From: Patiria miniata
Taxonomy: Eukaryota
Length of the DNA: 64,000 bases
NCBI RefSeq assembly: GCF_015706575.1
Contig: NW_024037061.1
Coordinates: 1,043,897-1,107,896, forward strand
Direction: 5' to 3'
Position 1 is the stretch's first letter; the number at the start of each line of letters is the position of its first letter. Shown here in pieces: positions 2,725 to 48,825 of the stretch. The translations under genes were made by a program, and so were the position numbers. Below the pieces are notes generated by a model. That model made no database searches. It saw only the letters and a program-made list of their open reading frames with translations, and had not been told where the DNA came from.

Positions 2725-5457
2725 CACATGTACCGGTGTCGTGCCAAAAACCGTCCGGTGCCAAATAGTGTCCGCTAATTAGCATAATGCAATCTGATTG
2801 GCCACATGCGTCCATGACGTCACATTGTTTACGGAAGCTTGCAAATAGTGTCCGCGCTTAGCGTGCATCCTATTGCATGCCTTGTCGAGATGTCAAGGCG
2901 TCGTATAGATAAGATCTCTTTTCACCTGAATTTACATTTTACAATCTGTTTTAACGTTTTCCTTGTTATCTGTGATAACTATTAGACTAAGATTCCCTAA
3001 TAGTGTAAACATTATATTTGTGCAAAATGTTTGTTTTTTTCGTGTCAGTTCACCTGTTTGAAACACATGCAGTACGTACGAATAGGCCTAAAGTAACGCC
3101 GTAGTGTGTGTAGTTAGCTCTACTGAGTGGAGCGTTGAATTACGGGTACCCCTCCATACAAACGCTCCACCGATTTGCCATACTTTGGTGACGGCGTCAC
3201 AGTAGCATATAGTCACATACCCACGCGAGGACAAAAAGACCCCCCAAAAAACCGGTAAAGAGAATACAAATGAGAGAGACAGTTACCCTGGATTGATCTA
3301 CACATTCATGACATTCCATCAGACCCCTTACATTGTTCCCAAACAGCGAAAATTTTGAAGAAAAACAGCAAAATAGTCTGAAAACTTACAGCTCAATGAC
3401 TCGCCGTGAGGCTCAATCCTTGCACCGGTTTGCCGAATGAGGGCATCTGACGTGACGTCACCGTCGTTGCTCGATCGAAGAAAAACAAGTCGCGCTTTAT
3501 CAACGACTGTTTCGTGTAATGATACGTGCTCCTTGGGTGTGTTCAAAGCCCGTACTGTCGTACGGCGCGGATCGGAGCACGTATCATTGAATGACACGAA
3601 CAGTCGTTGATAAAGCGCGACTTGTTTTTCTTCGATCGAGCAACGACGGTGACGTCACGTCAGACGCCCTCATTCGGCAAACCGGTGCAAGGATTGAGCC
3701 TCACGGCGAACACATGAGGCTGTAAGTTTTCAGACTATTTTGCTGTTTTTCTTCAAAATTTTCGCTGTTTGGGAACAATGTAAGGGGTCTGATGGAATGT
3801 CATGAATGTGTAGATCAATCCAGGGTAACTGTCTCTCTCATTTGTATTCTCTTTACCGGGTTTTTGGGAGGTCTTTTTGTCCTCGCGTGGGTATGTGTCT
3901 ATGCTACTGTGACGCCGTCACCAAAGTATGGCAAATCGGTGGAGCGTTTGTATGGAGCGGTACCCGTAATTCAACGCTCCACTCAGTAGAGCTAGTGTAG
4001 TATAGTACTGTTCCGTGTAGCATTATAACCAACATTATTTCTGTTTGGTCAAAATCTAGAGGTCAAGATGCGGTTGTCTTGTACAATTAATCAGCGAATC
4101 TGAATGTCCATGGTCTATTGCATAGACTAGTCTGTGTGAGGGTTGCGCTTTAAAAGGTCTGAAACCCTGCAACTTTTTAAGAAGCTTGATCGAAGCACGC
4201 ATCGCCGACACCTATCAATGTCTCCAACGACAAGATAAATCATAATCATAAGCATAACACGAACATTTACATCTTTGCGTGCGTTTTAATCATCAATCAT
4301 TCGAAGACAATTCTCCCCCGCTGCTTTCCCCGTCATTGGCCCATGAACTTCGAGGTCATCGGTCGTATCGAAGGGACTTTCCCCAACTTTTACCGTTGGG
4401 TGATCAGTTGATAAAGCTCAGGCCACCAACCTCCAATTCCTCCGCATATGGTTTACAAAAACAAATCGAACCTCTGTTCTGAAACTATGTGTCATAGTGG
4501 ATTAATTTTGCTTTGTAATAATTCCTTCATTTTTAACCTGAAAGCATCTGAAAAATACAAATCATCAGGGCCATAGCCTGTCGATTGAAGGTGGTTTTAT
4601 GAGGTGGACCTTTTCATGTCTTATAAACAGCGGTTGAATAGGAAACATTTAGTCAAACTGAAATGTCAATCGCGAGGAAAAAGTGGACGTGCAGTTGATG
4701 TGTTTTTTTTAGGGGGGGTTCTTCTGACCCCCCCCCCTTCTCAAGTCCAGTGCTCGTGGCACAATTTAAATTTTCTGTCCTAATAACAATGACAATAGGT
4801 TCTCTTCTAATATCCCTTTTTGTTACAGTGATTAACAACAACAAAACAAACCAAACAAATTCAAGACTCAATGTCTTCCACTTTCAAGAGGATACAAAAC
4901 TTGAACACAATTTACCAGGAACAAAAAGTCAATATAACGAAAAATATATTATACACATAGACTGGCAATATGAGGTCACTAGTCTTTGTGCCCTGAGAGA
5001 CTGTGAGTGACCAGAAGAGGGTCCTATAATAGGACCCTAGCTCTTCCGGTCACTCACAGGCCCGAGGGGGCATAGACGTGCACTGAGGACCGAATTAATA
5101 TGCCAGATCCATGTTTTATAACTCATCTCTGTCCAAAATATTAAATAAGAAAAGAAACCTTTCAGTGTTTTATTCTTGAACTGTTTTAATTCAACAATTA
5201 ACTCCTAAGCAATTCAACTGTCAGCAATTCAACAATTTAAGGAACTTCACTTTTAGTTTCCCTAGATTACATTTTTGAATTTGAGTTTTGTCAGAGGGCG
5301 CTGTTACCAGTCAAACGTGCTCGATCAGGGGCTATATACTCTGGAAATTACGCGCGCGCGATGTCTCGACGCGCGTCTAGTTTCACACACTAGCCCATAT
5401 TAAGTGAATCACATGTGACCGCGTTTCAGCCAACCAGGATAATGAACAAGCAGGAGA
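2725..5457 (+). repeat. Left inverted-repeat arm of the composite element. Components: terminal motif, A segment, palindrome P, B segment, unit U.
   Basis: Reverse complement of 9521-12263. Sub-terminal direct repeats caaatagtgtccg occur three times near the terminus. Confidence 0.6.
3115..3993. repeat. Internal perfect palindrome P (arms about 435 bp, centre about 3557) within the left arm.
   Basis: tagctctactgagtggagcg...cgctccactcagtagagcta. The centre ccgtactgtcgtacgg is itself palindromic. It contains tgacgtca motifs. Confidence 0.7.
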
Positions 5458-5527
5458 TGACCAATCAGATCGCATTATGCTAGTAAGTGGACACTATTTG
5501 GCACCGGACAGTTTTTGGCACGACACC
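4279..5527 (+). repeat. Tandem sub-unit U1 (1.25 kb) of the left arm. It ends in a copy of the element's terminal motif.
   Basis: Starts taatcatcaatcattcgaagacaattctccc. Ends gaccaatcagatcgcattatgctagtaagtggacactatttggcaccggacagtttttggcacgacacc. Confidence 0.65.
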
Positions 5528-6777
5528 TGTCTTAATCATCAATCATTCGAAGACAATTCTCCCCCGCTGCTTTCCCCGTCATTGGCCCATGAACTTCGAG
5601 GTCATCGGTCGTATCGAAGGGACTTTCCCCAACTTTTACCGTTGGGTGATCAGTTGATAAAGCTCAGGCCACCAACCTCCAATTCCTCCGCATATGGTTT
5701 ACAAAAACAAATCAAACCTCTGTTCTGAAACTATGTGTCATAGTGGATTAATTTTGCTTTGTAATAATTCCTTCATTTTTAACCTGAAAGCATCTGAAAA
5801 ATACAAATCATCAGGGCCATAGCCAGTCGATGGAAGGTGGTTTTATGAGGTGGACCTTTTCATGTCTTATAAACAGCGGTTGAATAGGAAACATTTAGTC
5901 AAACTGAAATGTCAATCGCGAGGAAAAAGTGGACGTGCAGTTGATGTGTTTTTTTGGGGGGGGGGGTTCTTCTGACCCCCCTCCTCAAGTCCAGTGCTCG
6001 TGGCACAATTTAAATTTTCTGTCCTAATAACAATAACAATAGATTCTCTTCTAAAATCCCTTTTTGTTACAGTGATTAACAACAACAAAACAAACCAAAC
6101 AAATTCAAGACTCAATGTCTTCCACTTTCGAGAGGATACAAAACTTGAACACAATTTACGAGGAACAAAAAGTCAATATAACGAAAAATATATTATACAC
6201 ATAGACTGGCAATATGAGGTCACTAGTCTTTGTGCCCTGAGAGACTGTGAGTGACCAGAAGAGGGTCCTATAATAGGACCCTAGCTCTTCCGGTCACTCA
6301 CAGGCCCGAGGGGGCATAGACGTGCACTGGGGACCGAATTAATATGCCAGATCCGTGTGTTTTATAACTCATCTCTGTCCAAAATATTAAATAAGAAAAG
6401 AAACCTTTCAGTGTTTTATTCTTGAACTGTTTTAATTCAACAATTAACTCCTAAGCAATTCAACTGTCAGCAATTCAACAATTTAAGGAACTTCGCTTTT
6501 AGTTTCCCTAGATTACATTTTTGAATTTGAGTTTTGTCAGAGGGCGCTGTTACCAGTCAAACGTGCTCGATCAGGGGCTATATACTCTGGAAATTACGCG
6601 CGCGCGATGTCTCGACGCGCGTCTAGTTTCACACACTAGCCCATATTAAGTGAATCACATGTGACCGCGTTTCAGCCAACCAGGATAATGAACAAGCAGG
6701 AGATGACCAATCAGATCGCATTATGCTAGTAAGTGGACACTATTTGGCACCGGACGGTTTTTGGCACGACACCTGTC
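5528..6777 (+). repeat. Tandem sub-unit U2, near-identical to U1.
   Basis: ORF 5994..6254 is 96% identical to ORF 4750..5010. Ends with the same terminal-motif copy (6706-6777). Confidence 0.65.
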
Positions 6778-6910
6778 TTAATCATCAATCATTCGAAGAA
6801 AATTCTCCCCCGCTGCTTTCCCCGTCATTGGCCCATGAACTTCGAGGTCATCGGTCGTATCGAAGGGACTTTCCCCAACTTTTACCGGACGGTTTTTGGC
6901 ACGACACCGG
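6778..6910 (+). repeat. Truncated third unit (6778-6884) joined to a partial terminal motif (6885-6910), immediately upstream of the core gene's TATA box.
   Basis: The unit sequence breaks at ..ccaacttttaccg | gacggtttttggcacgacaccgg. Confidence 0.6.
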
Positions 6911-6948
6911 GCTTCGAGGTGAGCCAGTTGGAATCCTAGTTGCAATCC

Positions 6949-6956
6949 TATAAATA
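6949..6956 (+). promoter_or_regulatory. TATA box (tataaata) for the core Cys-rich gene.
   Basis: 126 bp upstream of the ATG at 7082. About 40 bp downstream of the inner terminal-motif copy. Confidence 0.45.
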
Positions 6957-7081
6957 CGGCACACTGGTTGTGGAGCTGGCACAGAACGGCCAAGAAAGTT
7001 AAGGGAAGCGACTTCAACTGCCGAACAGACGATTTCAAGTTGAGAGAAGCCGACACTTCATAGTTGCAATAATTCGACAAG

Positions 7082-7158
7082 ATGAATGCCTGTCATGTCA
7101 TCTTTGTTGTCGCCATTTCGGCCATCATGATCCTCGGTGCAAATGCAAACCGTAAATA
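7082..7158 (+). CDS. Exon 1 of the Cys-rich secreted protein gene (signal peptide).
   Basis: ATG; hydrophobic core; donor TA|gtaagt. Confidence 0.55.
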
Positions 7159-9156
7159 GTAAGTTCCGATTAAAGACTTGATTTAAAGCAAAGCAAAACA
7201 AAACAAATCTCCTGTTTCTGGTACACGCGCACATCGCCGTGGAACTTTTTTTCAATGTAAGATGATGTCTCAAAATAGGTTGACGGGAATCCTGCTGCCG
7301 CACAATTTTAACGTGTTTTTAGATGAGGTTACGTTCGAGTATAGGCTAAATTTATGTGGCCCCTCTGGGCTGCCATATATTTTGCACTAAATTTAGTCGG
7401 GCACCATTTTGCAGCCGGTATTGTAAATGTTTTAATTCAACCTCGTCCCCAGTGCTTACTTTATTTCCAACCGCGTTTCCAATAGTAAACCCTGGATAGG
7501 AAACTTTCTTCCTGTATCCTGATTGGATACCGCAATTGGCTAGTAATGGATATTTATCGTGTACTTGGTGCTATTATTCACAACGTGCAGTACGTGTTTT
7601 CGCGATCATTCGTCCCCGCCTTCTCGAAAATACTAATTTCCTTTCCAATTTGCTCATATTAATATGAACTATGATACTGCATGTTGTCTCGATAAGATCG
7701 TAACAGTTTGATTTCAAAAATCGTGTTTTCGTAACTCACGCCGTGCTCGCGCTGCTACGAATTGACTCTGTTTTTACCCCAGACACCGCATACAAAAACA
7801 AACGCTAATGTGTAACGCATATCCAGGCACCAGACTGTTCCTCATTTGCATACATGTGCACAAATCTTGCACATGCAAATGATCCAATACCAGGGTGAGA
7901 GAGCAGGTAGTGGTGGGCGCGTACTGCTCGACACCCTGGGAACGAGGTTGGTTTTAATTGTGCCAGACTGAGAGAGCGATGGTCGTGTATATCTGGAACC
8001 TGTAAACGCTTTAAAGAGGCGCAATATGTAAGGGAGCAGACTAATAACCAGCCTGACAGCACATGCACGATGTCGATGTCGCTGTTTGGTCTGACGTTAC
8101 CGTTTTCTCTGATTTTTGTCTTGACTTTCCAAATTTCCCAAAGAATGTTCGGGTCGGTCGAGATTGTTATGGGTGCAAAATTCTCAAGCCTTATGGCCTT
8201 ACCGAGGTCATCGCAGGTTGCACCCTGAGGGCTATTTTTGAGAGTTTTGGGGGGATAGGGGCGACCAAAATCCCCCAAAATGCCAGCCGTGGATATTCAT
8301 TCAAAGGGGGAGGGAGGGGGGGGGGGGCGTGGACAACACCATTACACTAGGGGCGTTGTTCATAATACAGCACATACATCTTTAACAAATGTATACATGT
8401 GCGTACGCGCCTTAAACATCAACACATTAAAACGGCGCATTTAATTAGAAACATCTCATTTTTCGATTGATGACATTCTGGTTGATGGGAAGCTTAGAAA
8501 AAAACCCCTGAAAATCCACATTTTTTTCTCAACACGAAAAAGTGCGAGGGGTGGGAGATCCAATTGCCCATCCCCACCCCCCCCCCCAGTCAAAAACTGG
8601 CCGGGGATGTATACCCCCCCTTCCCGGATTAACGCCCCTGCCTCCGACTTCCGTCATTTAAAGGGGAAAACTACTAACAAGTTAGTATGCAGTTCGAATC
8701 ATTACATTACCACTGAGCTTTGTATGTTTTGTTTTTCTTTGATGCAGCTGTTATTGCGATCTTCGATGGAGCACAACCCAGCTAAGAGCAGGGCAGAGCA
8801 CCAATGGTTTATGGTTCTTGGAGGACCTACCTAACCCGAGCTACCACCACTGGCTCGTCGTGGGCTGCCAGGCGGTCCATCGAAACTGCCCCACCGACTG
8901 CCTGGATGAGGCCCATGACTGGATGGGCGGGTCTAGGTTCACCAACACGGCGGGCCAGCTGGCCTGCGAGAGCGTGCGGAGGAACGCGCCTCCAGGCAGT
9001 CCGATCTACGTGTACGCAACGTACGACAGCGTGTGCGGCGATCGCACGTGGCAGTATGTGGCCCCGCTCTGCTGCTGGAAGATCACGCTCCCTGGCTACG
9101 GCAACACCTTTGTGTACAACCACAGATGTGAAAATTCGAGTCCACCAAGATACTGA
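7082..9156 (+). CDS. Two-exon gene (exons 7082-7158 and 8748-9156) for a small secreted cysteine-rich protein, about 161 aa. Family not recognised.
   Basis: Exon 1 ATGAATGCC... encodes the signal-peptide-like MNACHVIFVVAISAIMILGANANRK and ends phase 2 (..AAA TA) at a consensus donor |gtaagt. Exon 2 follows a pyrimidine-rich acceptor ttttgtttttctttgatgcag| and restores the frame: TA+C gives Y, then CYCDLRWSTTQLRAGQSTNGLWFLEDLPNPSYHHWLVVGCQAVHRNCPTDCLDEAHDWMGGSRFTNTAGQLACESVRRNAPPGSPIYVYATYDSVCGDRTWQYVAPLCCWKITLPGYGNTFVYNHRCENSSPPRY*. 10 Cys. TGA at 9154-9156. Confidence 0.55.
8748..9156 (+). CDS. Exon 2 of the Cys-rich secreted protein gene.
   Basis: Acceptor gatgcag|. Open frame to TGA at 9156. 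Corresponds to ORF 8818..9156 extended upstream. Confidence 0.55.
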
Positions 9157-9283
9157 GTTGTTTCTAGTTACTACCATACACATGATGGTTGGTGCCATGA
9201 TGCTGACTAGCGAAGCTTCAACTTCATGTGAACTCATACACAGACTGCATGGCGCTGACGCTGTAACATTGCTATTGCGAAAC

Positions 9284-9289
9284 AATAAA
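9284..9289 (+). terminator. Poly(A) signal AATAAA for the core gene. A second one lies at 9339-9344.
   Basis: 128 bp and 183 bp downstream of the stop codon. Confidence 0.4.
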
Positions 9290-9520
9290 TTGTTGCAAAG
9301 TTTATTTTCAGATTTAAGTCAAAGTACCAAACTACTTCAATAAACGGTATTTTGGAAGTTGTAGTACTCAGAACATATACTTGTTACACCCCCTAATTCG
9401 CTTGAACTCTGTCCCGTTAAAATTTAGAAAACAGTAGTCATAATTACCGATTTTTTTATTGATTTACTTAACGTGCAGTAAACGTAATAAATTAACATTG
9501 TGAGGCTATTTTCGTTTTTA

Positions 9521-12263
9521 ACACATCTCCTGCTTGTTCTTTATCCTGGTTGGCTGAAACGCGGTCACATGTGATTCACTTAATATGGGCTAGTGTGTGA
9601 AACTAGACGCGCGTCGAGACATCGCGCGAGCGTAATTTCCAGAGTATATAGCCCCTGATCGAGCACGTTTGACTGGTAACAGCGCCCTCTGACAAAACTC
9701 AAATTCAAAAATGTAATCTAGGGAAACTAAAAGCGAAGTTCCTTAAATTGTTGAATTGCTGACAGTTGAATTGCTTAGGAGTTAATTGTTGAATTAAAAC
9801 AGTTCAAGAATAAAACACTGAAAGGTTTCTTTTCTTATTTAATATTTTGGACAGAGATGAGTTATAAAACATGGATCTGGCATATTAATTCGGTCCCCAG
9901 TGCACATCTATGCCCCCTCGGGCCTGTGAGTGACCGGAAGAGCTAGGGTCCTATTATAGGACCCTCTTCTGGTCACTCACAGTCTCTCAGGGCGCAAAGA
10001 CTAGTGACCTCATATTGCCAGTCTATGTGTATAATATATTTTTCGTTATATTGAGTTTTTGTTCCTCGTAAATTGTGTTCAAGTTTTGTATCCTCTTGAA
10101 AGTGGAAGACATTGAGTCTTGAATTTGTTTGGTTTGTTTTGTTGTTGTTAATCACTGTAACAAAAAGGGATTTTAGAAGAGAATCTATTGTCATTGTTAT
10201 TAGGACAGAAAATTTAAATTGTGCCACGAGCACTGGACTTGAGGAGGGGGGTCAGAAGAACCCCCCCTAAAAAAAACACATCAACTGCACGTCCACTTTT
10301 TCCTCGCGATTGACATTTCAGTTTGACTAAATGTTTCCTATTCAACCGCTGTTTATAAGACATGAAAAGGTCCACCTCATAAAACCACCTTCCATCGACT
10401 GGCTATGGCCCTGATGATTTGTATTTTTCAGATGCTTTCAGGTTAAAAATGAAGGAATTATTACAAAGCAAAATTAATCCACTATGACACATAGTTTCAG
10501 AACAGAGGTTCGATTTGTTTTTGTAAACCATATGCGGAGGAATTGGAGGTTGGTGGCCTGAGCTTTATCAACTGATCACCCAACGGTAAAAGTTGGGGAA
10601 AGTCCCTTCGATACGACCGATGACCTCGAAGTTCATGGGCCAATGACGGGGAAAGCAGCGGGGGAGAATTGTCTTCGAATGATTGATGATTAAAACGCAC
10701 GCAAAGATGTAAATGTTCGTGTTATGCTTATGATTATGATTTATCTTGTCGTTGGAGACATTGATAGGTGTCGGCGATGCGTGCTTCGATCAAGCTTCTT
10801 AAAAAGTTGCAGGGTTTCAGACCTTTTAAAGCGCAACCCTCACACAGACTAGTCTATGCAATAGACCATAGACATTTGAGCAGATTCGCTGATTAATTGT
10901 ACAAGACAACCGCATCTTGACCTCTAGATTTTGACCAAACAGAAATAACGTTGGTTATAATGCTACACGGAACAGTACTATACTACACTAGCTCTACTGA
11001 GTGGAGCGTTGAATTACGGGTACCGCTCCATACAAACGCTCCACCGATTTGCCATACTTTGGTGACGGCGTCACAGTAGCATAGACACATACCCACGCGA
11101 GGACAAAAAGACCCCCCAAAAACCCGGTAAAGAGAATACAAATGAGAGAGACAGTTACCCTGGATTGATCTACACATTCATGACATTCCATCAGACCCCT
11201 TACATTGTTCCCAAACAGCGAAAATTTTGAAGAAAAACAGAAAAATAGTCTGAAAACTTACAGCCTCATGTGTTCGCCGTGAGGCTCAATCCTTGCACCG
11301 GTTTGCCGAATGAGGGCATCTGACGTGACGTCACCGTCGTTGCTCGATCGAAGAAAAACAAGTCGCGCTTTATCAACGACTGTTTCGTGTCATTCAATGA
11401 TACGTGCTCCGATCCGCGCCGTACGACAGTACGGGCTTTGAACACACCCAAGGAGCACGTATCATTACACGAAACAGTCTTTGATAAAGCGCGACTTGTT
11501 TTTCTTCGATCCAGCAACGACGGTGACGTCACGTCAGACGCCCTCATTCCGCAAACCGGTGCAAGGATTGAGCCTCACGGCGAGTCATTGAGCTGTAAGT
11601 TTTCAGACTATTTTGCTGTTTTTCTTCAAAATTTTCGCTGTTTGGGAACAATGTAAGGGGTCTGATGGAATGTCATGAATGTGTAGATCAATCCAGGGTA
11701 ACTGTCTCTCTCATTTGTATTCTCTTGAACGGTTTTTTGGGGGGTCTTTTTGTCCTCGCGTGGGTATGTGACTATATGCTACTGTGACGCCGTCACCAAA
11801 GTATGGCAAATCGGTGGAGCGTTTGTATGGAGGGGTACCCGTAATTCAACGCTCCACTCAGTAGAGCTAACTACACACACTACACACTACGGCGTTACTT
11901 TAGGCCTATTCGTACGTACTGCATGTGTTTCAAACAGGTGAACTGACACGAAAAAAACAAACATTTTGCACAAATATAATGTTTACACTATTAGGGAAAC
12001 TTAGTCTAATAGTTATCACAGATAACAAGGAAAACGTTAAAACAGATTGTAAAATGTAAATTCAGGTGAAAAGAGATCTTATCTATACGACGCCTTGACA
12101 TCTCGACAAGGCACGCAATAGGATGCACGCTAAGCGCGGACACTATTTGCAAGCTTCCGTAAACAATGTGACGTCATGGACGCATGACCAATCAGATCCC
12201 ATTATGCTAATTAGCGGACACTATTTGGCACCGGACGGTTTTTGGCACGACACCGGTACATGT
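9521..12263 (-). repeat. Right inverted-repeat arm of the composite element.
   Basis: Reverse complement of 2725-5457. It lacks the extra tandem units and the inner terminal-motif copy. Confidence 0.6.
10990..11879. repeat. The same palindrome P within the right arm.
   Basis: Mirror copy of 3115-3993. Confidence 0.7.
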
Positions 12264-12406
12264 AACCAATCGAGTTGCCAAAGCGCTCTGGTTGAAAGGG
12301 CAGTTATACATGTGATATATATTGACAATGGGTTTTTTTGCAATGCCATAACGACAACATTGACCAGCAGTTGAAAATCGCCATTTTTGACAGCTTCCAA
12401 GTTCCT

Positions 12407-12884
12407 AGCCCCATAAATGTGGCCTATTTACTGGACTACCTCCGTAAACATAGGCCACACATCCACATGTACAAAAACGTGTCGCACTTTGCCAAATTTT
12501 GATTTTCACATTTTAGGCTTAGTTGAAGGGTTTTTTTGGCTTTAGAAGCATACTCACCCTCTTTATAGGCTAATCAGAAAGTGCTGCCTTTTTCAGATGT
12601 CTAATTTTTGTGAAATTTCATGTTGAAATTTTGATACGCAAACGTGTGCAAATAAATCTGGAAATTTCACGAAAAATAGACATCTGAAAAAGGCAGCACT
12701 TTCTGATTAGCCTATAATTATAAAGAGGGTGAGTAGCCTATGCTTCTAAAGCCAAAAAAACCCTACAAACTAAGCCTAAATGTGAAAATCAAAATTTGGC
12801 AAAGTGCGACACGTTTTTGTACATGTGGATGTGTGGCCTATGTTTACGGAGGTAGTCCAGTAAATAGGCCACATTTATGGGGCT
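12407..12884. mobile_element. Foldback or hairpin MITE-like element: a perfect palindrome with arms about 215 bp and a central loop about 12625-12662.
   Basis: agccccataaatgtggcctatttactggac...gtccagtaaataggccacatttatggggct. A possible 9-bp TSD CCAAGTTCC sits at 12397-12405 and 12899-12907. Confidence 0.55.
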
Positions 12885-13252
12885 ACCAAGACTAAGTACC
12901 AAGTTCCATAACCACCATGACCACCATGACCACTGATAACGATAACCACTATGTAGGCCTAACGAGGCCCATTTAATTTGGCGATTGTGTACATGTAGTT
13001 ACAGGCCCCTCTTTAGTTTCGATCAAATTAGACTAGAGTCGCGTGTGATTTTTATCATTCTGTACGTACGTCATGTACGTTGCGTATGCGCTGCACTTTA
13101 CCGATCCGTAAAATTTGGGGACTTTCGACCTGTCTTTCTTTTCATTTTCAAGACATTTTTAAACGAACAAGTTATCATGTTGTCAAATGTCAATGTGGTT
13201 ACTTGATTTAACCCTTGATAAATAATCTCGTCTGAATTAAAATGAACCTTAC

Positions 13253-17275: not shown

Positions 17276-17590
17276 TAACCCATAGGCCCTTTTTGCTAGG
17301 AACCATCCTCAAACCGTCAAAATCCTCCAAAACTTTGCACTTATGTTCAAATGAAGGATACAGCGCCTCAATCCTTCAAAATCGTCAGACAGTCCTGCCT
17401 CTCAAATTGCATTCATCCTCAATCCTCCAAAATCCTTCATTCATCCCAAATCCTTTAAAATCTCCTCTTCTTCAAACACCACTCAATCCTTCAAAATCCT
17501 CATGTGCTTCAACACCATCCATCCTCAATCCTCCAAAAATCCTCCGAAACCGCCATGAGGATTTTGGAGGATTGAGGAGAGTTAGGGTTA
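17276..17590. mobile_element. TTAA-flanked MITE family 1, copy A (partly diverged).
   Basis: Termini ttaaccc.../...gttagggttaa. Internal catcctcaatcctccaaaatcctc sub-repeats and the inverted ggaggattttggagg. Homologous to 28625-29021 and 35264-35703. Confidence 0.5.
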
Positions 17591-20127: not shown

Positions 20128-23100
20128 GTTGGTAAATTTTCTCATACACTAAGTATGATCACCATTTACGTGAAATTAAATGAAATATCCTAAATTTAAC
20201 AAAAATGTAAGTATTTTTTGTAGTATACATGTCCCAGCTGCTATCATAACGTGCGCATTGTACAGTTGTAGGGGGCATGCGTGGCGTCTGACATGTACTG
20301 CGTACTTATGTATGAATATATGCAACTGCTTTACTGAACATTGTTGGAACTTCAAATCTGAAGGTTTCGGGTAGAAATGCTAAGGGAATAAAATGCGCAT
20401 TACCCCTTTTAGATGATCACTGCATGCGGTACATGTAGGCCCAGTGAAGGTCCCCATATGCAAAAATGCTTGGGAAAGACCGTGACATCCCCCCCCCCCC
20501 CACGTTTTCTAATAGTACTCGGTATGAAGTGCTTTTTACTGTTAGATTTTGTGTTTTGTATATGAGGAACAAATCAAGTCTCTTTTTCTGAAATGAAGAT
20601 GGTGATTATTGTCCGTTTTCCTTTGCATGTTTTCATTTATTCATGGAGGTAGAAAAAAAACCATGGTTCATTGTATACATGTACAAATCATCTGTACATG
20701 ATGCAGTGGTGGACAGATGAATGTTGTGGTATTTCTTTTTAAATAAAGATGCCCAACTTGTGATGAGAGTATGCAAATAACCTTAAATTTTCACAGTTAC
20801 TAGTCAATAACACGTATTTTCTACTAAATGGAGCGATCGCCACATATTTTAAAATATGTTTTTTTCAAACTCGGTCACTTTAATTTTTACTCCCTGTGAT
20901 GAGATAAGGACTGGCCAGCCAACCTTGGTGGCCCAGTTCTTGTAATTAAGGTGTCTGCACTTCATACAGTGCAAGTTCTCCGACAGTGAACGGCGCTAAT
21001 TTCATTACGTTGGTGAAGGGCGAAACTTAAACCATAAACTCATCATATTCAACGATCAAATTAGTCAATATTTGTTGGTACTCTATCACTGTCCCCAAAA
21101 CCCATCCAAACTAATATTGACAGGTCTGTCTGTCTGCAGATCAGCTTGACCTTTAGACAAGTATCTATTTTAAGCTGGTATAAGTGTAGATCTAGGTCAT
21201 CAATTATTGGCCAGGACAAACGTTAATGATTGTACCAGGCATGCATTGAGCTCTTAAGTGATTGGCCAGTTCTGCTCAAATGCCCCAGACTGCAGAATCT
21301 CATTGGTCAACAGCTGGGTACCTCATTGATGAGCTCTTATGTGATTGGCCAGTTCTGCTCAAATGGCCAGACTGCTGAATCTCATTGGACAACAGCTGGC
21401 TACCTCATTGATGAGCTCTAAAGTGATTGGCCAGTTCAGCTCAAATGGCCAAACTGCATAAACTCATTGGTCAACAGCTGGCGACCTCATTGAGGAGCTC
21501 TTAAGTGATTGGCCAGTTCTGCTCAAATGCCCCAGACTGCTGAATCTCATTGGACAACAGCTGGCGACCTCATTGATGAGCTCTAAAGTGATTGGCCAGT
21601 TCTGCTCCAATGCCCCAGACTGCAGAATCTCATTAGACAACAGCTGGTGACCTCGTTGATACAAATTTGGGGGTTACAACGGGAGGTCACTGGCTGTTTT
21701 TCAATAACAAGTATTTGGTGACCCTGGAGCACTTAGTTCCTCAAGGACCAAGGATTACTGGATTTGCACAGTACTACTGTAGGATAACCTCCAGTGCTTG
21801 TGCAGTGTAAGCTGTGCACGTACTGTATGTATACATATGTACAATGTGCTGTATACGTACAGTATCTGTACTCGTGGAGGAAGTGGATTGTTTCTGTTGG
21901 CAGCTATAGAAATTAGAAGGGTAAGTCTTCAGCTTAAAAATAATTAGGGGGGGGGGGGGGAGGATTCGGCCTACGATTTACAATATTCTTCAATTGAAAA
22001 ATACATGTAAACATCCCAATTTGGTTTTGGCATTTCTGTACACCGGGCTGTGCCCAGGCAAGCCTCATTTTGCCATAAATCCTCACAAATATTTGGAGCT
22101 GTTCAAAATCTTATTAAAAAATGACAAATGGCCTACATTGCACATGTACATGTCCAATGTACCATACATACACGTAGCTGGCCAAAATGCATCTTGTTAA
22201 GAAATGATGAATGGCCTGAACTCTCCTGCTGCATTGCCCTTCTGAACTTTATATCAATAAATTAATATGAAATATGATACTTGTGTAAACCAAAATGTGG
22301 AATTTGAGATGAGTTCATGCCACGAAAATATTCTGCATAATTGGTAAAATATATCCTTAATGTGTATCTCTGTAGGGTTATCATAATTATAGGCTTTTTG
22401 AGAAACTAGCTGCTGACCACGAAGTTCTCGGCGAATTATTTGCGTTGCGCTTGCTAGTTCTGTACAGAATTTAGCTTTTTAGGGATACTTTTTCTCATCT
22501 TTATTTACAGTTTTTATGTCAGATAAAGGGGTTCACTGGAAGTGTGGTCATGGTGGGGAGACTTTGTGTTGTAAGACAACCTTTGACATAAAGTCCAAGT
22601 AGCCTTCTACATTTATGTTCACTGTATGTACTTCCGACCATTTTTCAGTAACTACAGTGTACATACACTTTAGTTTGAATTCATGTCATGGTTGCGTGAA
22701 TTCTTGCAGCTGCTCACATGCAGTAAGTTGAATCATATTTTTCTTACAACTCAGAAGAAATTTACAAGCATGTATTGTACAATGTATCAACGGGAAAATG
22801 AGTTTGTTTTTTGCCAGTGCCAACAGTACAAATCCAAGTGGAATTGAGCAGTATGTAGGTAGGAACTGGAAAACTCAAATCATACAAAATGTTCCCTCTA
22901 GGTAGTGAGAATTTTACTGATCGAGTCCAACAGAAGTAAAAGGTGAGGGAAAATGTGGTGTTCTACCACAGTCTTAAATGTACCGGTATGTATAAAGGGT
23001 AAACATTATAGGAGCTGTACATTGTTGAAAATACAGAGTTTTAAGAGTTCATTTATTTGATGTCCAACAGCAACGTGTCGACCTGTCCAAAGACTGGACG

Positions 23101-26100
23101 TCCTTCATCGGAACCTCAACCCCAAGCCTGTCGCCCTACAAGGATCCAGACCAGGCCGCCTCCTCTTCCTCAAATCCGGACTCCGTCTTTGTTCTCCTGG
23201 AGGCCTCCCCGCCCAAGACGGATCGGCAGGGTCGCCTGAATCTGCGCAAGGTGGCCCGGGAGCGAGTCGTGAAGCTCTCCGGGCTGACCACTCCACTGGC
23301 GTGGAAATCAGGCGAGCCGTTTGGCATTCTGGTCCAGGCCTCTGCCAACAACTTTGGGCTGGTGGGCTCTGCCTATCTGGAAGGGGTGCTGGAGCTTGAC
23401 GACGGCCTGCTGGTAGAGCAGATAGTCTGTGAGTACATGTGAAACATTGTAGTGATTGGACCGATAGCATGTTGAATATGTTGAATAATAAACCAGCCAA
23501 GCATGTCAATCACGGGGGTTCCCCAGTCGCCACCCGCGATACGGCAGTCTTGTATGCAGTGTGAAACCGTGAAGTCGTGTCCCTCTCTGATGTGTGGCTG
23601 ACTCTGCGCTGCCTCACGACTCCGCGCTGCTATAGCTCTAGACTCCCATAGTACTGCTGTACTACAACATCAGGTTTGGCAAAGGTAGTGAGAGAGTGCA
23701 TGGGTGAGAGTTGTTAGTACCGGTAGGAGACTGTCTCAAAATTGAAAGCATACAAGGTTCATTCAGAATATAGTACAGTCTTGATGACATTTCACTGGTG
23801 AGATTATTTTGGATTTGTGATATAGAAAATGGCAAATTTCAGCTGTGACAGCTTACTCTGTGTACAATCATTTTTCAGGTGTTGATACAATTGGGGAGCC
23901 GTTCAACCTCGTCAATCAAGACCCCAAGACTCCTTCGCCTTCCCCCTTCCCACCCGGTTCCCCCTTCCACCGTTCTCCCTCCGGAAACAGCCTCCTCCAA
24001 AGATCAGGTTCGTCCAAAAAGGAGGTAAAACCGCTGCGCCGGAAACACTCTCAGGAATTCCTCAAGAAATTGGAGGAGCAGCATCAGAGAATTTCCCGCA
24101 AATCCTCGTCGGAGTCGAGCGACCTGGGTGGCATCTCGGTCGAAATGGCCGGTCAGGGACTAGATGATGAAGTACTGGTGGACATTGAAGGGAGTCCGAA
24201 ATTTCATCTAGGAGGAGCCACAATCGACGTTGGAGGCACATCCTCGGGAGATGCCAGCAATGTCTCAAGGAAGCCTCCCAATCTTCTTGTGTATACGGGA
24301 AGTGACGACACGGACAAATCCAGATACAAGTCCTCGGTGGCTTTTCTGGAGAAATTCCTGCACCGGGATCGCTATGTCATCTACCATTTGGAGCAAGAAC
24401 AAGCTTTGAAACATCCGTGGGCCGAAAACTGCAAGCTTCTTCTCCTAATGACGGGCAAAGAACCCATTCCCGAGAACACACTGAAGAAGTTTACCGATTA
24501 CGTTAAGAGTGGCGGATTTCTTTTCGTACTTGATGGCCAAAGTGCCAACTCTGAAACACCTGCGAGCGTGAGCGCTATTAAGTACTCGGAAATGCTCGGA
24601 GGGGAGATGCTGTCCTTTCAAGGCCTTTGTTCTGAGGATCCCCTAAAGAGGGACTTGTTTCCTGGGGGACAAATGAAGGTGCTGGCAGAGAGTCAAGGAA
24701 ACGCTGTCATTACCGAAACTTCCTTCAAAGGTAGCGCAGGAAAAATCATATCTTCTCAAGTAAGTCACTAAAATCTACATGTATCAATACACTTACATGT
24801 AGTATTCCGGAGTTTGCAAGTTCAAACCTCGCTCAATGCAATTTCTTTGTTCGAGCTTTAAATTACAAAAATGCATCATGTTTGTTGTCTTGTTGTGGTT
24901 CATTTGAAGATGTATATCATTGTATAACCAGTTCACGCCGGATGACTAGTATACCAGCAAATTGGTTTTGCGGTATTCGGAACAAATGACTGATAAACAC
25001 GCAGGGAGCGATGCCGGAAATATCTGTCAGAGACCCGCTCGTAGCGAGCAAGGTCGGGAATATGAGTGTGCTGCCCGAGGGTGATGGTTTCAACCCGCCT
25101 GGCTTGAGATCGCGTGAAAAGTAATCCCGCACCTCGTTCCGTTTTTGTCAAAATAATCCCGCGCCAACTGGTTAACATTTAGGAATAATTTTTTACATCT
25201 GTAATTGCGATATTTCCACATTGAAATGAAAAAAAAAAAGTTCAAATTTTTTGATGTCAAGATTTGGGCTGTGAGGTTGAACTAACATGTTCATGTAGTC
25301 ATGACTCATTCCCTGTACAATTTACAAGATGCATGCTCGTCATGTCATTCGTCACATTAGCATTTCAGTCCATGGAAACATGTGCATATGATTACTACCA
25401 GATAACGTGACACTGTGACGATATTAACAACTGCCCGTCTGAAGTTAGATTCCTATCTATCACATTTCAAAATGAGAAAAGAACATGTGATGCTGAGTCT
25501 CATTAGTGAACAGAACAAAAAACCACAAGGGAATGTGACCATGCTACATTGAACATTTGTTGACTGCTGTGATGTGGGTTATGGTGTTTTAACACCCAAG
25601 GGGCGCATAGCACCCGAAGCGAATTATGGAACAAAGTGATTGACTGGAGTGGGGTTTGAACCTGCGACCTCCGGATTGGTGTTCCGGTGCTCTACCAACT
25701 GAGCTATCCAGCCCAATGTTGGCAGTTACCTATTTTGTCAATGTCTTTGTTCAAGGGGCGCTAGTCAGAAGCCATGAACTATATGCCATGCATGTATCCA
25801 GGGATCACGCCCAAAGTCACGATGCTAGCAACATTAACAATGCTGCAAACCTGGAAAATATGTAGAAAACAGTGATCACTCAAAGAGGATACATCTTTTT
25901 ATTGCAAATATTCAAATAAACAACATTTTAATCAAATATGTGCATAAATTTTCATGTTTTTATGGTAACAGGTCCAGCTTCAACTCATCTCCCCAGAGAG
26001 TCTGGTTCCGGACACCGAAGCCTTTACTGAACTTAAACAGTCCAATGAGGTCCGACACCAGGTCATCTTTGACCTTCTGGGCCGGCTGGGGTTAAAGTGC

Positions 26101-41039: not shown

Positions 41040-41230
41040 ATGGGGAGATCGCAGGATGGCGGCTGGGCTTGGGTCGTGCTGCTCGGTGCACATGTCGGTA
41101 CCATGCTGAGCAATGGCTATCTGCTAACACTCGGAGTATTCTACACAGAATGGAAGGAAGTGTTCGAGTTGTCTGCTACGAATGCAAGTTGGCTTGTCAG
41201 CATGCCCATGCTGGTGGCAAGCCCTTTGTG
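41040..41230 (+). CDS. MCT-like exon 1.
   Basis: ATG 41040. Donor T|gtaagt. Confidence 0.8.
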
Positions 41231-47640: not shown

Positions 47641-48825
47641 TTACTTGCCAGAGCATGCCCTGGTGACAAACTTCTTCTTGTCGAAGACGGGCATCTTGCA
47701 CATGAAGCCGCGGCGTAGGGTCTTACTGTCGCCATTGGTGTCGTTCCATTCTCTGGTAGAGCTCATCTCCGCCTGGTCCTCACTCCTACCAGACCCTCCG
47801 TCGTCTGGGCTGCCTGATCTCCAGTTTTTGTACGGAGTGGGGCTACCGTCTGTCCAGACAAATGTTCCTTCGGGTTTTGTAAACAAATAATACAAATATA
47901 ACAATGGAGCTATACACCACGTCTCCTATCGTAATAAAAGTGTGTGATTGGCCGGTTTTAAACAAGTCCGTTTAAGACTGGAATAGACGCTGCTAATATA
48001 ACAGCCTGAGCCGAAGGCGAGGGGTATCATTGGCGACTATAGCCCCCAGTCGGCCTTAAATGGACTTGTTAAATACCGGCCAAGCACATATGTATTCCAA
48101 TTCATAATACCTTTTTGGTCTAAGAATAGTCAAAACAAGTCAACAATTATAACTTTCCAAAGCTTTTGTTCAACAATTTTAGTCAATGTTTTTGAGCTCG
48201 TTTTGTAGATCGTTTTGATAGATTTCATGCAAGACTTTCATGCAAGACGGCCAGAGGTTATTGCGCACTCGCTCTTGTTTACAGTCAAAATGACTCGCTT
48301 TCTTCACGGTTTGTCTCCTTCAACTGCACAACCAATTTCCAGCATGTAGGCCTATGATTGGGTGCGTCTGTAGTCACTTGGTCCGTTTGTTGGTCTTTTA
48401 AAATTCATAATTGAAAAGTTTACCGGAAATATGACATATTTTATGTTACGTTTAAATTAAATGACGTACTGCGCTTGTGAGTATGGAAATTAAAGTTCTA
48501 TAACTTGAATCTTACCTTCATTCTGGGTATCGGTGAAACCAATCCAAAAGTTTCCACGCATGCCGGCCATCGTGGCTATGTCCAAGATGAAATCGTTCTC
48601 ATCTTGGTCCTGCACTGAAGCTAGGTGGCCCGTCCCGTTTAGGGTGGAGAACCCCTGGCAGTACGCCTCAGCTTCATGGAACGTAACCGACAGCTTACTA
48701 CGGGGCACGAACTTGTAGCAGTGATCTCTGAACTGAACCCAGCCCGGCTCACATTGGCCGATAAAGCACCCGCACGCTGCGGTGCATGACGCCACCATCA
48801 CCGCAAGAATTAAATTTCCCTTCAT
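47641..48825 (-). CDS. Secreted single-CTLD C-type lectin, about 180 aa. Two exons: 48825-48516 and 47867-47641.
   Basis: MKGNLILAVMVASCTAACG signal peptide. CEPGWVQFRDHCYKF..AEAYCQG..HLASVQDQDENDFI..NFWIGFTDTQNEG | TFVWTDGSPTPYKNW..PDD..EDQAEMS..REWNDTNGDSKTLRRGFMCK. Donor GAAG|gtaaga. Acceptor cccgaag|GAACA. Phase 1 on both sides. Confidence 0.75.

What the first reader, a model, noticed from the sequence alone, without database searches (positions are those of the whole stretch)
2725..12263. 9.5-kb foldback-like composite element whose unique core is a complete gene for a secreted Cys-rich protein
Two roughly 2.7-kb arms are near-perfect inverted repeats, and they terminate in exactly complementary sequences (acatgtaccggtgtcgtgcc... 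/ ...ggcacgacaccggtacatgt). The arms are internally structured into a terminal motif, sub-terminal caaatagtgtccg repeats, a perfect palindrome with 430-bp arms, and 1.25-kb tandem units (2.1 copies on the left, 1 on the right). The only unique DNA between them, 6910-9520, is almost exactly one transcription unit: TATA 6949, ATG 7082, a 1.6-kb intron, stop 9156, AATAAA 9284. No transposase is encoded, so this would be a gene-carrying non-autonomous element or a gene embedded in a giant palindrome. Arm identity of about 99% implies recent formation or ongoing homogenisation. The terminal bases acatgt are themselves palindromic, so a TSD cannot be separated from the TIR.
Basis: seen in the sequence. 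Interest (0 to 1): 0.85.

Follow-up and report, generated by a model that had tools for sequence, protein, structure and literature searches.

The report
Inverted transposon copies bracketing a sea-star gene
In bat-star (Patiria miniata) DNA, two inverted copies of a non-coding cut-and-paste-type transposon enclose one ordinary, intact secreted-protein gene, giving a 9.5-kb foldback-like block that may have been inserted as one piece; this kind of structure is already known, and whether this one moves could not be tested here.

Summary
Arms 2726-5459 and 9524-12263 are inverted repeats, 98.9% identical. The core holds a complete two-exon gene whose product is 100% identical to Patiria miniata LOC119730529.

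Three points change the picture:
- **The left arm is a whole transposon.** It has 71-nt terminal inverted repeats (TIRs) at both ends. Its inner end is amplified as [1,246-bp unit + inner TIR] twice, plus a third copy with an internal deletion. The right arm lacks the inner TIR.
- **The "perfect palindrome" is a nested hairpin element.** It is 880 bp long and has its own 7-bp target-site duplication (TSD) in both arms.
- **The inner TIR copies help locate the TIR tip.** The conserved TIR starts at (A)C[C/A]GGTG. The flanking ACATGT / YACATGTA is therefore more likely a 6-8-bp TSD of the whole block than part of the TIR.

The gene belongs to an old host family found in other sea stars, a sea cucumber and amphioxus. 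The Acanthaster planci homologue has no flanking repeats.

My best reading, at about 0.45, is a foldback-like composite ("macrotransposon") made by transposase acting on two like ends, with the gene as passenger. Formation in place is nearly as likely.

No other copy could be retrieved, so mobility, copy number and superfamily remain untested. I rate it a new member of a known kind, of modest interest.

The parts
2725..2732 (.). Left candidate target-site duplication, CACATGTA (or ACATGT at 2726-2731 if the TIR starts at 2732)
   Evidence: It matches 12257-12264 (TACATGTA) at 7 of 8 positions. The 6-bp version matches 6 of 6.
2733..2803 (+). Outer left TIR, 71 nt. It holds two 17-nt direct subrepeats (GTGCCAAA-N4-GTCCG at 2741-2757 and 2758-2774). 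A third, variant subrepeat lies just inside it at 2838-2854.
   Evidence: (I17-I19).
2804..3114 (+). Non-coding body of the left copy, subterminal part
   Evidence: I8, 99% to the right arm; searches found no coding signal.
3115..3994 (.). Nested 880-bp hairpin (foldback-type miniature element) with ends TAGCTCTACTGAG...CTCAGTAGAGCTA. It is flanked by the 7-bp direct repeat GTGTAGT at 3108-3114 and 3995-4001.
   Evidence: (fold z = -92).
3995..4282 (+). Non-coding body of the left copy between the nested element and the tandem array
   Evidence: I2/I3.
4283..6887 (+). Tandem array of the 1,246-bp unit, 2.09 copies: U1 4283-5528, U2 5529-6774, and the first 113 nt of U3 at 6775-6887
   Evidence: D1-D4.
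5457..5530 (-). Inner TIR copy R1, inverted relative to the outer left TIR and 90% complementary to it. Its tip reads ...CACCTGT.
   Evidence: I19, D7.
6703..6776 (-). Inner TIR copy R2, 92% complementary to the outer left TIR
   Evidence: I18, D7.
6887..6910 (-). Remnant of inner TIR copy R3 (tip ...GGCACGACACCGG). It is joined to the start of U3 across an internal deletion of about 1.1 kb at the 4-nt microhomology ACCG. This is the inner end of the left copy, 38 nt upstream of the TATA box.
   Evidence: motif hit at 6886.
6911..9523 (+). Unique core: one transcription unit with short flanks
   Evidence: Searches found no similarity to the arms or to the rest of the window.
6949..6956 (+). 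TATAAATA box of the gene
   Evidence: read directly.
7082..7158 (+). Exon 1: ATG, signal peptide, ends in phase 2. A GTAAGT donor follows.
7159..8747 (+). Intron, 1,589 nt, GT...AG
8748..9156 (+). Exon 2 through the TGA stop. Together with exon 1 it encodes 161 aa, 100% identical to P. miniata LOC119730529.
9284..9289 (+). AATAAA polyadenylation signal. A second AATAAA lies at about 9487, close to the arm border.
   Evidence: read directly.
9524..12184 (-). Right copy, body. It is the reverse complement of 2804-5459, with one tandem unit and no inner TIR.
   Evidence: I1-I8.
10989..11869 (.). Same nested hairpin element in the right copy, flanked by ACTACAC on both sides
12186..12256 (-). Outer right TIR. 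Its inner 15 nt (ATGACCAATCAGATC) read like the inner-TIR type.
   Evidence: I17, D7.
12257..12264 (.). Right candidate target-site duplication, TACATGTA (or ACATGT at 12258-12263)

Best explanation
**What it is.** The block is a composite made of two inverted copies of one non-coding class II (TIR) transposon that bracket an ordinary host gene.

**The basic element.**
- It is about 2.8 kb long (2733-5530).
- It has 71-nt TIRs, each with two 17-nt direct subrepeats that look like transposase-binding sites.
- An 880-bp hairpin element was already nested in it before it was duplicated.

**The two copies.**
- The left copy is complete. Its inner end has been multiplied as [1,246-bp unit + inner TIR] twice, plus a third unit with an internal deletion.
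- The right copy is the same element inverted, stopping where its inner TIR should begin.

**How it most likely arose.** The two outermost ends are the same kind of end and sit between the same 6-8 bases. The most economical history is one transposase-mediated event that used two like ends and inserted the whole 9.5 kb. This resembles a foldback element, a maize Ac macrotransposon or a composite insertion. The secreted Cys-rich gene, with its promoter and intron, is passenger DNA in the middle domain.

**Internal joints.** The joints at 6886|6887 (4-nt microhomology) and 9523|9524 look like break-repair joints, of the sort aborted replication or repair would leave during such an event.

**Shown:** the anatomy, the TIRs and subrepeats, the nested element with its TSD, the flanking 6-8-bp match, the intact annotated gene, and the gene's host ancestry.

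**Inferred:** that the arms belong to a multi-copy transposon family, that the flanking match is a TSD, that the block moved as a unit, and that the transposase is supplied in trans by an unidentified autonomous relative. An 8-bp TSD and a CAGGTG tip on the inner TIRs hint at a hAT-like element.
For: - **A 71-nt motif bounds a 2.8-kb unit in inverted orientation.** It is 90-92% complementary between the two ends and carries internal 17-nt direct subrepeats (I18/I19). This is the standard layout of a class II transposon end.
- **The outer flanks match.** They read CACATGTA and TACATGTA (7 of 8), or ACATGT (6 of 6).
- **The inner TIR copies place the tip.** R1-R3 lose similarity to the outer ends just outside (A)C[C/A]GGTG. 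This argues that ACATGT(A) is target sequence, not TIR.
- **The left copy alone has no TSD.** Its flanks are CACATGTA and GCTTCGAG. If the whole TIR were extended through ACATGT, there would be no TSD of any length from 2 to 10.
- **A hairpin element with a clean 7-bp TSD sits at the same site in both arms**. The arms are therefore copies of one already-compound sequence, and foldback-type elements have transposed in this genome.
- **The duplications look like one burst.** Arms and tandem units are about equally diverged, star-like, with private differences of 9, 6 and 5.
- **The arms have no coding capacity**.
- **The gene is a host gene under constraint.** It matches the annotated protein at 100%, has homologues in other deuterostomes, and gives dN/dS of 0.23 against the A. 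planci homologue.
- **The A. planci locus has no such repeats and no shared neighbours**.
- **Known precedents exist.** Foldback elements have a terminal domain, internal tandem repeats that reuse terminal sequence, and a middle domain (PMC4079207). Ac macrotransposons and composite insertions are bounded by transposon termini and 8-bp TSDs (PMC9910405, PMC4270019).
Against: - **Only one copy is known.** Nothing related was found in the other 54 kb of the window, in metagenome or viral contig scans, in 5.8 billion proteins or in the literature. Transposon status therefore rests on anatomy alone.
- **The flanking hexamer is palindromic.** The same bases can be read as a TIR extension, or as 7 nt of flank copied along with an inverted duplication.
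- **The 8-bp version has a mismatch**, although the arms differ by only about 1%.
- **No near-identical second copy of the gene is annotated.** The closest paralogue is 84% identical and the protein's cluster has one member. There is thus no trace of a donor locus or of copy-number gain.
- **Both outer ends are the same end.** Many transposases need two different ends.
- **The right arm stops within about 3 nt of the inner TIR border.** The model does not predict this.
Confidence: 0.45

Rival explanations
1. Formed in place. The gene has always been at this position. Either two copies of the transposon landed independently on both sides of it, for example by local hopping into the nucleosome-poor 5' and 3' ends of the gene. 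Or one resident copy was partly duplicated in inverted orientation by a transposon-induced break or a replication template switch. Under this reading the 9.5-kb block never moved as a unit, and the ACATGT at both ends belongs to the copied end.
For: - The left copy ends 38 nt upstream of the TATA box, and the right copy begins shortly after the poly(A) signals. This fits elements that favour gene ends.
- No near-identical paralogue or donor is annotated.
- The palindromic ACATGT allows the inverted repeat simply to extend 7 nt further than the conserved TIR core.
- The internal joints show microhomology typical of break repair.
- The right copy lacks an inner TIR, so it is not a clean insertion.
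Against: - Neither copy has a TSD of its own, whereas the outermost pair does.
- A template switch would have to begin exactly at a transposon tip.
- Two independent insertions would not be expected to share the same flanking 6-8 bases, roughly a 1 in 4,000 chance for 6 bp. The exception is if those bases are part of the element, and the inner TIR copies argue against that.
Confidence: 0.38
2. Assembly artefact. The inverted arm, the extra tandem units, or both come from mis-joined haplotypes or chimeric long reads in a highly heterozygous genome.
For: - Copy-to-copy differences of 0.5-1% are in the range I would expect for allelic variation in a broadcast-spawning echinoderm. This expectation rests on my own knowledge and was not tested.
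- No independent assembly or reads could be examined.
Against: - There are no Ns or gaps in the window.
- The arms are asymmetric and separated by 2.6 kb of unique, correctly spliced gene that NCBI annotated. Missed-adapter palindromes would be symmetric with no spacer.
- Haplotype duplication gives direct copies, not inverted ones.
- The junctions show ordinary microhomology.
Confidence: 0.07
3. A maintained palindrome with a function of its own. Possibilities are arm-to-arm gene conversion protecting the locus, recombination between the arms flipping the gene, or read-through transcripts of both arms forming a long hairpin RNA that feeds small-RNA silencing of the transposon family (as Mu killer does in maize; this comparison is from my own knowledge).
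For: - 2.7-kb arms at 98.9% identity can recombine.
- One 15-nt patch looks converted.
Against: - The divergence of about 1% is spread evenly and is star-like, so there is no sign of sustained homogenisation.
- The gene sits in the spacer, not in the arms.
- The A. planci homologue has no such arms.
- No expression or small-RNA data are available.
Confidence: 0.1

Closest known systems
Foldback elements (Drosophila FB, Galileo, Tetris; sea-urchin TU elements)
   Same: - Long inverted arms make up most of the element.
- The arms are modular: a terminal domain, then internal tandem repeats that contain a copy of terminal sequence, then an inner domain.
- A non-repeated middle domain lies between the arms.
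- There is no transposase in most copies.
- They are prone to rearrangement.
The Tetris description, and the citations for Galileo and the sea-urchin elements, are in PMC4079207.
   Different: - The tandem unit is very long, at 1,246 bp against 10-220 bp.
- It is amplified in one arm only.
- Its copy of the terminal motif is inverted relative to the nearby outer end. The arm is thus itself a TIR-bounded element.
- The middle domain is a complete host gene.
- The candidate TSD is 6 or 8 bp, against 7 bp for Galileo and 8-10 bp for Tetris.
- Multi-copy status is unknown.
Ac/Ds macrotransposons and composite insertions from alternative transposition in maize (hAT superfamily)
   Same: - Host DNA, including whole regulatory or genic segments, lies between two transposon termini.
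- The whole is flanked by one 8-bp TSD.
- Internal junctions are made by break repair.
- Tandem and inverted duplications arise next to the termini.
Sources: PMC9910405 and PMC4270019.
   Different: - The maize cases use a 5' end and a 3' end of two elements. Here both outer ends are the same end.
- The superfamily is unknown.
- No excision or reinsertion has been observed.
- The host is an animal, not a plant.
Bacterial composite transposons (two IS copies, often inverted, flanking passenger genes)
   Same: Two copies of one element bracket a passenger gene, and the outer ends define the mobile unit (background in PMC9587614).
   Different: The flanking copies here encode no transposase. The host is a eukaryote. 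The passenger gene has an intron.
KolobokP composite-like transposons (reported in P. miniata among other animals)
   Same: - Terminal repeats that carry their own short TIRs.
- Multimer arrays of the form (repeat-internal)n-repeat.
- Solo units.
- The same host species is listed.
Source: PMC9587614.
   Different: - KolobokP has direct terminal repeats of about 450 or 660 bp, not inverted ones.
- Its TSDs are TTAA-type, 3-5 bp.
- It encodes a transposase and a His-Me nuclease.
None of these features is seen here.
Pack-MULEs and other transduplicating elements
   Same: Host sequence is carried between TIRs of a non-autonomous element (my own knowledge).
   Different: - Those carry gene fragments, usually without promoter or full structure.
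- They have 9-bp TSDs and short arms.
- Here the gene is complete and the arms are 2.7 kb.

Membership tests
Foldback-type class II elements | Long terminal inverted repeats forming most of the element, around a non-repeated middle domain | tested here: met
   The arms are 2,734 nt each (the left one extends to 4.2 kb) around a 2.6-kb core.
Foldback-type class II elements | Modular arms with internal tandem repeats that reuse terminal sequence | tested here: met
   Each 1,246-bp unit ends in a 74-nt copy of the terminal motif (D7). There are also 17-nt subrepeats. Only the left arm is amplified.
Foldback-type class II elements | Target-site duplication of fixed length at the outer ends | tested here: inconclusive
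   The match is 6 of 6 (ACATGT) or 7 of 8 (YACATGTA). The sequence is palindromic, so a TIR extension cannot be excluded from one copy.
Foldback-type class II elements | Several dispersed copies with the same ends; insertion polymorphism | not testable with these tools
   The P. miniata genome is not searchable here. There are no copies in the rest of the window, none in the metagenome or viral scans, and the gene look-ups failed.
hAT superfamily (non-autonomous) | 8-bp TSD | tested here: inconclusive
   CACATGTA against TACATGTA, 7 of 8.
hAT superfamily (non-autonomous) | TIR tips of the YARNG type (CAG.../TAG...). This criterion is recalled from my own knowledge. | tested here: inconclusive
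   Inner TIRs R1 and R2 start CAGGTG. The outer ends and R3 start CCGGTG.
hAT superfamily (non-autonomous) | Related autonomous element with a hAT transposase sharing the ends | not testable with these tools
   The arms contain no coding sequence, and a genome-wide search is not possible.
Macrotransposon / composite insertion (alternative transposition) | Host DNA between two transposon termini, with the whole flanked by one TSD | tested here: inconclusive
   The termini are present. The TSD is probable but ambiguous. The left copy alone has no TSD.
Macrotransposon / composite insertion (alternative transposition) | Demonstrated excision or reinsertion, or a retained donor locus | not testable with these tools
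   No near-identical paralogue is annotated. No population or genome-wide data are available.
KolobokP composite-like transposons | Long terminal direct repeats of about 450 or 660 bp with short TIRs; TTAA-type TSDs of 3-5 bp; internal transposase plus His-Me nuclease | tested here: not met
   The arms are inverted, not direct. There is no TTAA at the ends. No ORFs or domains were found. The criteria come from PMC9587614.
Large genomic palindromes kept uniform by arm-to-arm gene conversion | Arm identity far above neutral expectation (99.9% or more) with genes in the arms. This criterion is recalled from my own knowledge. | tested here: not met
   The arms are 98.9% identical, with differences spread along their length. 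The gene lies in the spacer.

The most novel reading that the evidence does not exclude
The block is one member of an active foldback-type transposon family in asterinid sea stars. The family would move complete, promoter-bearing, intron-containing host genes as passengers, making it an animal counterpart of bacterial composite transposons. Other copies would carry other cores. Each passenger gene would also receive new upstream regulatory sequence from the inner TIR array, which carries a CCAAT-box-like sequence (gaccaatcag) and a TAATTA palindrome.
Probability: 0.12. Interest if true: 0.65.

Novelty: new member of a known kind. Interest (0 to 1): 0.33.

Why it matters
If the block did move as a unit, it would be a clean animal example of a DNA transposon relocating a whole functional gene, with promoter, intron and poly(A) signal. 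Most documented eukaryotic cases involve gene fragments.

The locus also keeps the repair joints, and its tandem and inverted duplications are of about equal age. It could therefore serve as a natural record of alternative transposition outside maize.

If it formed in place, it is an ordinary example of transposon-driven local rearrangement. Its practical value is then limited to two points:
- Such inverted arms are hotspots for inversion and for assembly error.
- The gene's proximal upstream region is now transposon sequence.

Tried and rejected
**Fetching paralogous loci.** I tried to see whether the P. miniata paralogues carry the same arms. Four P. miniata proteins are not on record in the contig index. 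Only the A. planci homologue could be fetched.

**Pattern scans.** The 28-nt TIR core found nothing in metagenome contigs or viral contigs.

**Arm reading frames as a protein query.** I joined all stop-free arm frames into one 640-aa query to catch spurious ORFs called on other copies. It gave no hit among 5.8 billion proteins and no Pfam domain.

**Literature string search.** The TIR sequence appears in no held paper.

**Sensitive search of the rest of the window.** nhmmer and blastn with word size 7 found only chance-level matches. The flanks are unique, so no empty-site paralogue exists in the window.

**RNA families and tRNAs.** Rfam and ARAGORN found nothing in the arms. The only Rfam hits are sub-threshold plant-miRNA matches to the neighbouring hairpin, which I treat as spurious.

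**Structure of the Cys-rich protein.** The model has mean pLDDT 37 and is unusable, so I did not run a fold search. In the representative search, three long multi-stretch hits (Elysia crispata and two unnamed ENA proteins) look like low-complexity noise.

**KolobokP membership.** Considered because P. miniata is a listed host, and rejected on orientation, TSD and coding content.

**Helitron-like end arrays.** Considered for the tandem inner ends, and set aside because of the clear TIRs.

**Transib/RAG-like ends.** Considered, and rejected because no 5-bp TSD solution exists.

**Sustained gene conversion between arms.** Rejected because of the evenly spread, star-like differences.

Full report

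Yes. Chained inverted matches cover 2726-5459 against 9524-12263. Across the whole 64-kb window the only other inverted repeats longer than 62 nt belong to a 480-bp hairpin next door, at 12406-12885. A global alignment of the left arm with the reverse complement of the right arm shows 29 mismatches and 5 small indels over 2,734 nt, about 98.9%.

The termini are exactly complementary. A 39-nt core of the terminal motif occurs four times in the window where none is expected. CAAATAGTGTCCG occurs six times where 0.1 is expected.

The tandem unit is 1,246 bp. There are 2.09 copies on the left (4283-6887) and about 0.94 on the right. The internal palindrome (3115-3994 and 10989-11869) folds as a single long hairpin (z = -92). 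It is not perfect: 417 of 454 arm columns are identical. The window has no N.

**2. The core gene.**

Joining 7082-7158 to 8748-9156 (GTAAGT donor, cag acceptor) gives a 161-aa protein with a signal peptide and 10 cysteines in the mature part. It is 100% identical to NCBI's "uncharacterized protein LOC119730529 [Patiria miniata]".

- The protein has no Pfam domain.
- It has three P. miniata paralogues (84, 78 and 57% identity) and an Acanthaster planci homologue (62%).
- An exhaustive search adds distant relatives of similar length in Branchiostoma, Apostichopus and a barnacle.
- dN/dS against the A. planci homologue is 0.23.
- An AlphaFold model was unusable, with pLDDT 37.

The A. planci locus, the only related locus I could fetch, has the same two-exon structure. 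It has no flanking inverted repeats, no similarity to the arms and no shared neighbours with the window. The gene is therefore an old host gene, not something the repeat invented. The repeat structure is specific to this copy or this lineage.

**3. What the arms are.**

Three observations change the picture.

*(a) The terminal motif also faces inward.* It occurs three more times inside the left arm, inverted relative to the outer left end:
- R1 at 5457-5530
- R2 at 6703-6776
- a 24-nt remnant, R3, at 6887-6910 (I18/I19/D7)

So 2733-5530 is a complete 2.8-kb unit bounded by 71-nt inverted repeats that are 90-92% complementary. Each TIR holds two 17-nt direct subrepeats (GTGCCAAA-N4-GTCCG), with a third variant about 80 nt further in. 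That is the usual layout of a class II transposon end with transposase-binding sites.

The "tandem repeat" is therefore [3' part of the element + inner TIR] repeated. The outer tip of each inner TIR is joined directly to position 4283 of the same element. The third unit is reduced to its first 113 nt plus the last 24 nt of the TIR, joined at the 4-nt microhomology ACCG. R3 ends 38 nt upstream of the gene's TATA box.

The right arm is the same element inverted. Its homology stops at 9524, which corresponds to 5459. That is within about 3 nt of where the inner TIR would begin.

*(b) The palindrome is a nested element.* The 880-bp palindrome has ends TAGCTCTACTGAG.../...CTCAGTAGAGCTA. In both arms it is flanked by the 7-bp direct repeat GTGTAGT. 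It is a nested hairpin-type miniature element that inserted before the arms were duplicated.

*(c) Nothing codes.* The arms have no ORF over 108 codons, no Pfam domain, no relative among 5.8 billion proteins, and no Rfam family or tRNA.

**4. TIR or target-site duplication?**

The inner TIR copies give some leverage. Reading from the outside inward:
- the outer ends read ...T-ACCGGTGTCGTGCC
- R1 and R2 read ...G-ACAGGTGTCGTGCC
- R3 reads ...G-CCCGGTGTCGTGCC

Nothing further out is shared. The conserved end therefore starts at (A)C[C/A]GGTG.

With the tip at CCGGTG, the flanks are CACATGTA and TACATGTA, an 8-bp match at 7 of 8 positions. With the tip at ACCGGT, they are ACATGT and ACATGT, 6 of 6. 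If ACATGT is instead counted as TIR, no TSD of 2-10 bp exists. The left copy taken alone (flanks CACATGTA and GCTTCGAG) has none either.

I put about 70% on the TSD reading. A single copy cannot settle it, because an inverted duplication that carried 7 nt of flank along would look the same.

**5. Age and history.**

The three copies of the 1,246-bp unit differ in a star-like way, with private differences of 9, 6 and 5. The outer arm parts differ by about 1%. The tandem and inverted duplications are therefore about equally old, which fits a single episode.

Sustained homogenisation is not needed to explain this. The only cluster of differences (2790-2804) makes the right outer TIR read like the inner-TIR type, which suggests a short conversion patch.

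**6. Most likely mechanism.**

The structure has the following features:
- it is bounded by two like transposon ends
- it is flanked by one short duplication
- it contains host DNA
- it has internal joints with little or no microhomology
- it shows tandem duplication whose junction is a transposon tip

This is what transposase-driven "alternative transposition" produces in maize. There, macrotransposons and composite insertions consist of transposon termini flanking duplicated host segments, with 8-bp TSDs and repair joints (PMC4270019; PMC9910405).

It also fits the general description of foldback elements: a terminal domain, internal tandem repeats that reuse terminal sequence and may add transposase-binding sites, an inner domain and a middle domain. 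Such elements are usually non-autonomous and rearrangement-prone, and they have been reported from sea urchins among others (PMC4079207).

My preferred account is that transposase supplied in trans engaged two left ends and inserted them at YACATGTA. Replication or repair then copied inward from both ends, and the two broken ends were joined at 9523|9524. This left the transposon's neighbour, the gene, as the middle domain.

The stop of the right arm at the inner TIR border could reflect stalling at a transposase-bound or stem-paired TIR. That is inference only. I give this account 0.45.

**7. Rival explanations.**

*Formation in place, 0.38.* Either two insertions occurred at the two ends of a resident gene, or a resident copy was duplicated in inverted orientation. 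This is nearly as likely as my preferred account.
- For it: the arms abut the promoter and the poly(A) region, no donor or near-identical paralogue is annotated, and the palindromic flank is ambiguous.
- Against it: neither copy has its own TSD, while the outermost pair does.

*Assembly artefact, 0.07.* This is unlikely, given the asymmetric arms, the unique annotated core, the absence of gaps and the fact that the copies are inverted rather than direct. It could not be tested with reads.

*A selected palindrome, 0.10.* The function could be conversion, gene flipping or a hairpin-RNA source. There is no positive evidence for it.

**8. Comparison with known systems and novelty.**

- The block works like a foldback or composite element. 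Membership in any superfamily is untested, because the defining evidence (other copies, TSD length across copies, an autonomous partner) is out of reach here.
- KolobokP, a composite-like family reported in P. miniata, is excluded. Its repeats are direct, its TSDs are TTAA-type and it is coding (PMC9587614).
- hAT-like features (an 8-bp TSD and a CAGGTG tip on R1 and R2) are hints only.

I rate it a new member of a known kind. What sets it apart is that the middle domain is a complete, constrained host gene, and that the arm is itself a TIR-bounded element with a 1.25-kb amplified inner end. I score interest at 0.33. It would rise to about 0.65 if a genome-wide search showed a family of such elements carrying different genes, to which I give a probability of about 0.12.

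**9. What failed.**

Every attempt to find further copies outside the window drew a blank or was impossible. The central question, whether this is a mobile unit or a local rearrangement, therefore remains open. It is directly answerable by a BLAST of the TIR against the P. miniata assembly and a search for an empty site.

Noticed in passing
window 12406-12885: A 480-bp hairpin (ends TAGCCCC...GGGGCTA, arms 95-96% complementary) lies 143 bp to the right of the element. It is probably another foldback-type miniature element. CCAAGTTCC abuts its left end and recurs 13 nt beyond its right end. Its only Rfam hits are sub-threshold plant-miRNA families, which I take to be spurious.
   Followed up: partly
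window 17449-17525, 28861-28974, 35500-35656; L001 6473-6513: Minisatellites with a 43-bp unit (36-bp in one case) occur at three places. Each lies next to a 30-40-nt block that also matches the A. planci locus at 84-97%. This is probably a dispersed repeat family shared by the two sea stars.
   Followed up: no
window 21247-21660 and 52751-53154: Two further tandem arrays: 83 bp x 5.0 and 64 bp x 6.3, each about 90% matching. They are unrelated to the element.
   Followed up: no
window 25641-25713 (-): ARAGORN calls a tRNA-Gly with anticodon ACC. That anticodon seems unusual to me for a nuclear gene (my own knowledge), so this may be a tRNA-derived repeat or a pseudogene.
   Followed up: no
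window 30809-31771 (-), 41040-41429 (+), 44630-45451 (+), 48490-48831 (-), 23845-24771 (+): Neighbouring host genes: a single-exon PAN + fibrinogen-C protein (Pfam E = 6e-59), exons of an MFS transporter, an exon that looks like a C-type lectin (read by eye, not scanned against Pfam), and an ORF with a weak biotin-protein-ligase N-terminal hit. None of them is shared with the A. planci locus.
   Followed up: partly
L001 4010-4177: The A. planci locus holds an extra partial copy of the last third of exon 2 of the Cys-rich gene. It is 84% identical in protein to the full gene and lies 8.5 kb upstream of it.
   Followed up: no
window 9121-9156 (C-terminus of the protein): The window's protein and its closest paralogue have lost the C-terminal cysteine pair (CPP...C) that the other three family members keep. 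All other cysteines are invariant.
   Followed up: no
window 6841-6849 and 6912-6920: The 9-mer CTTCGAGGT occurs inside the tandem unit and again immediately after the last inner TIR remnant, at the start of the unique core. It may be chance, or a trace of an end-joining target.
   Followed up: no
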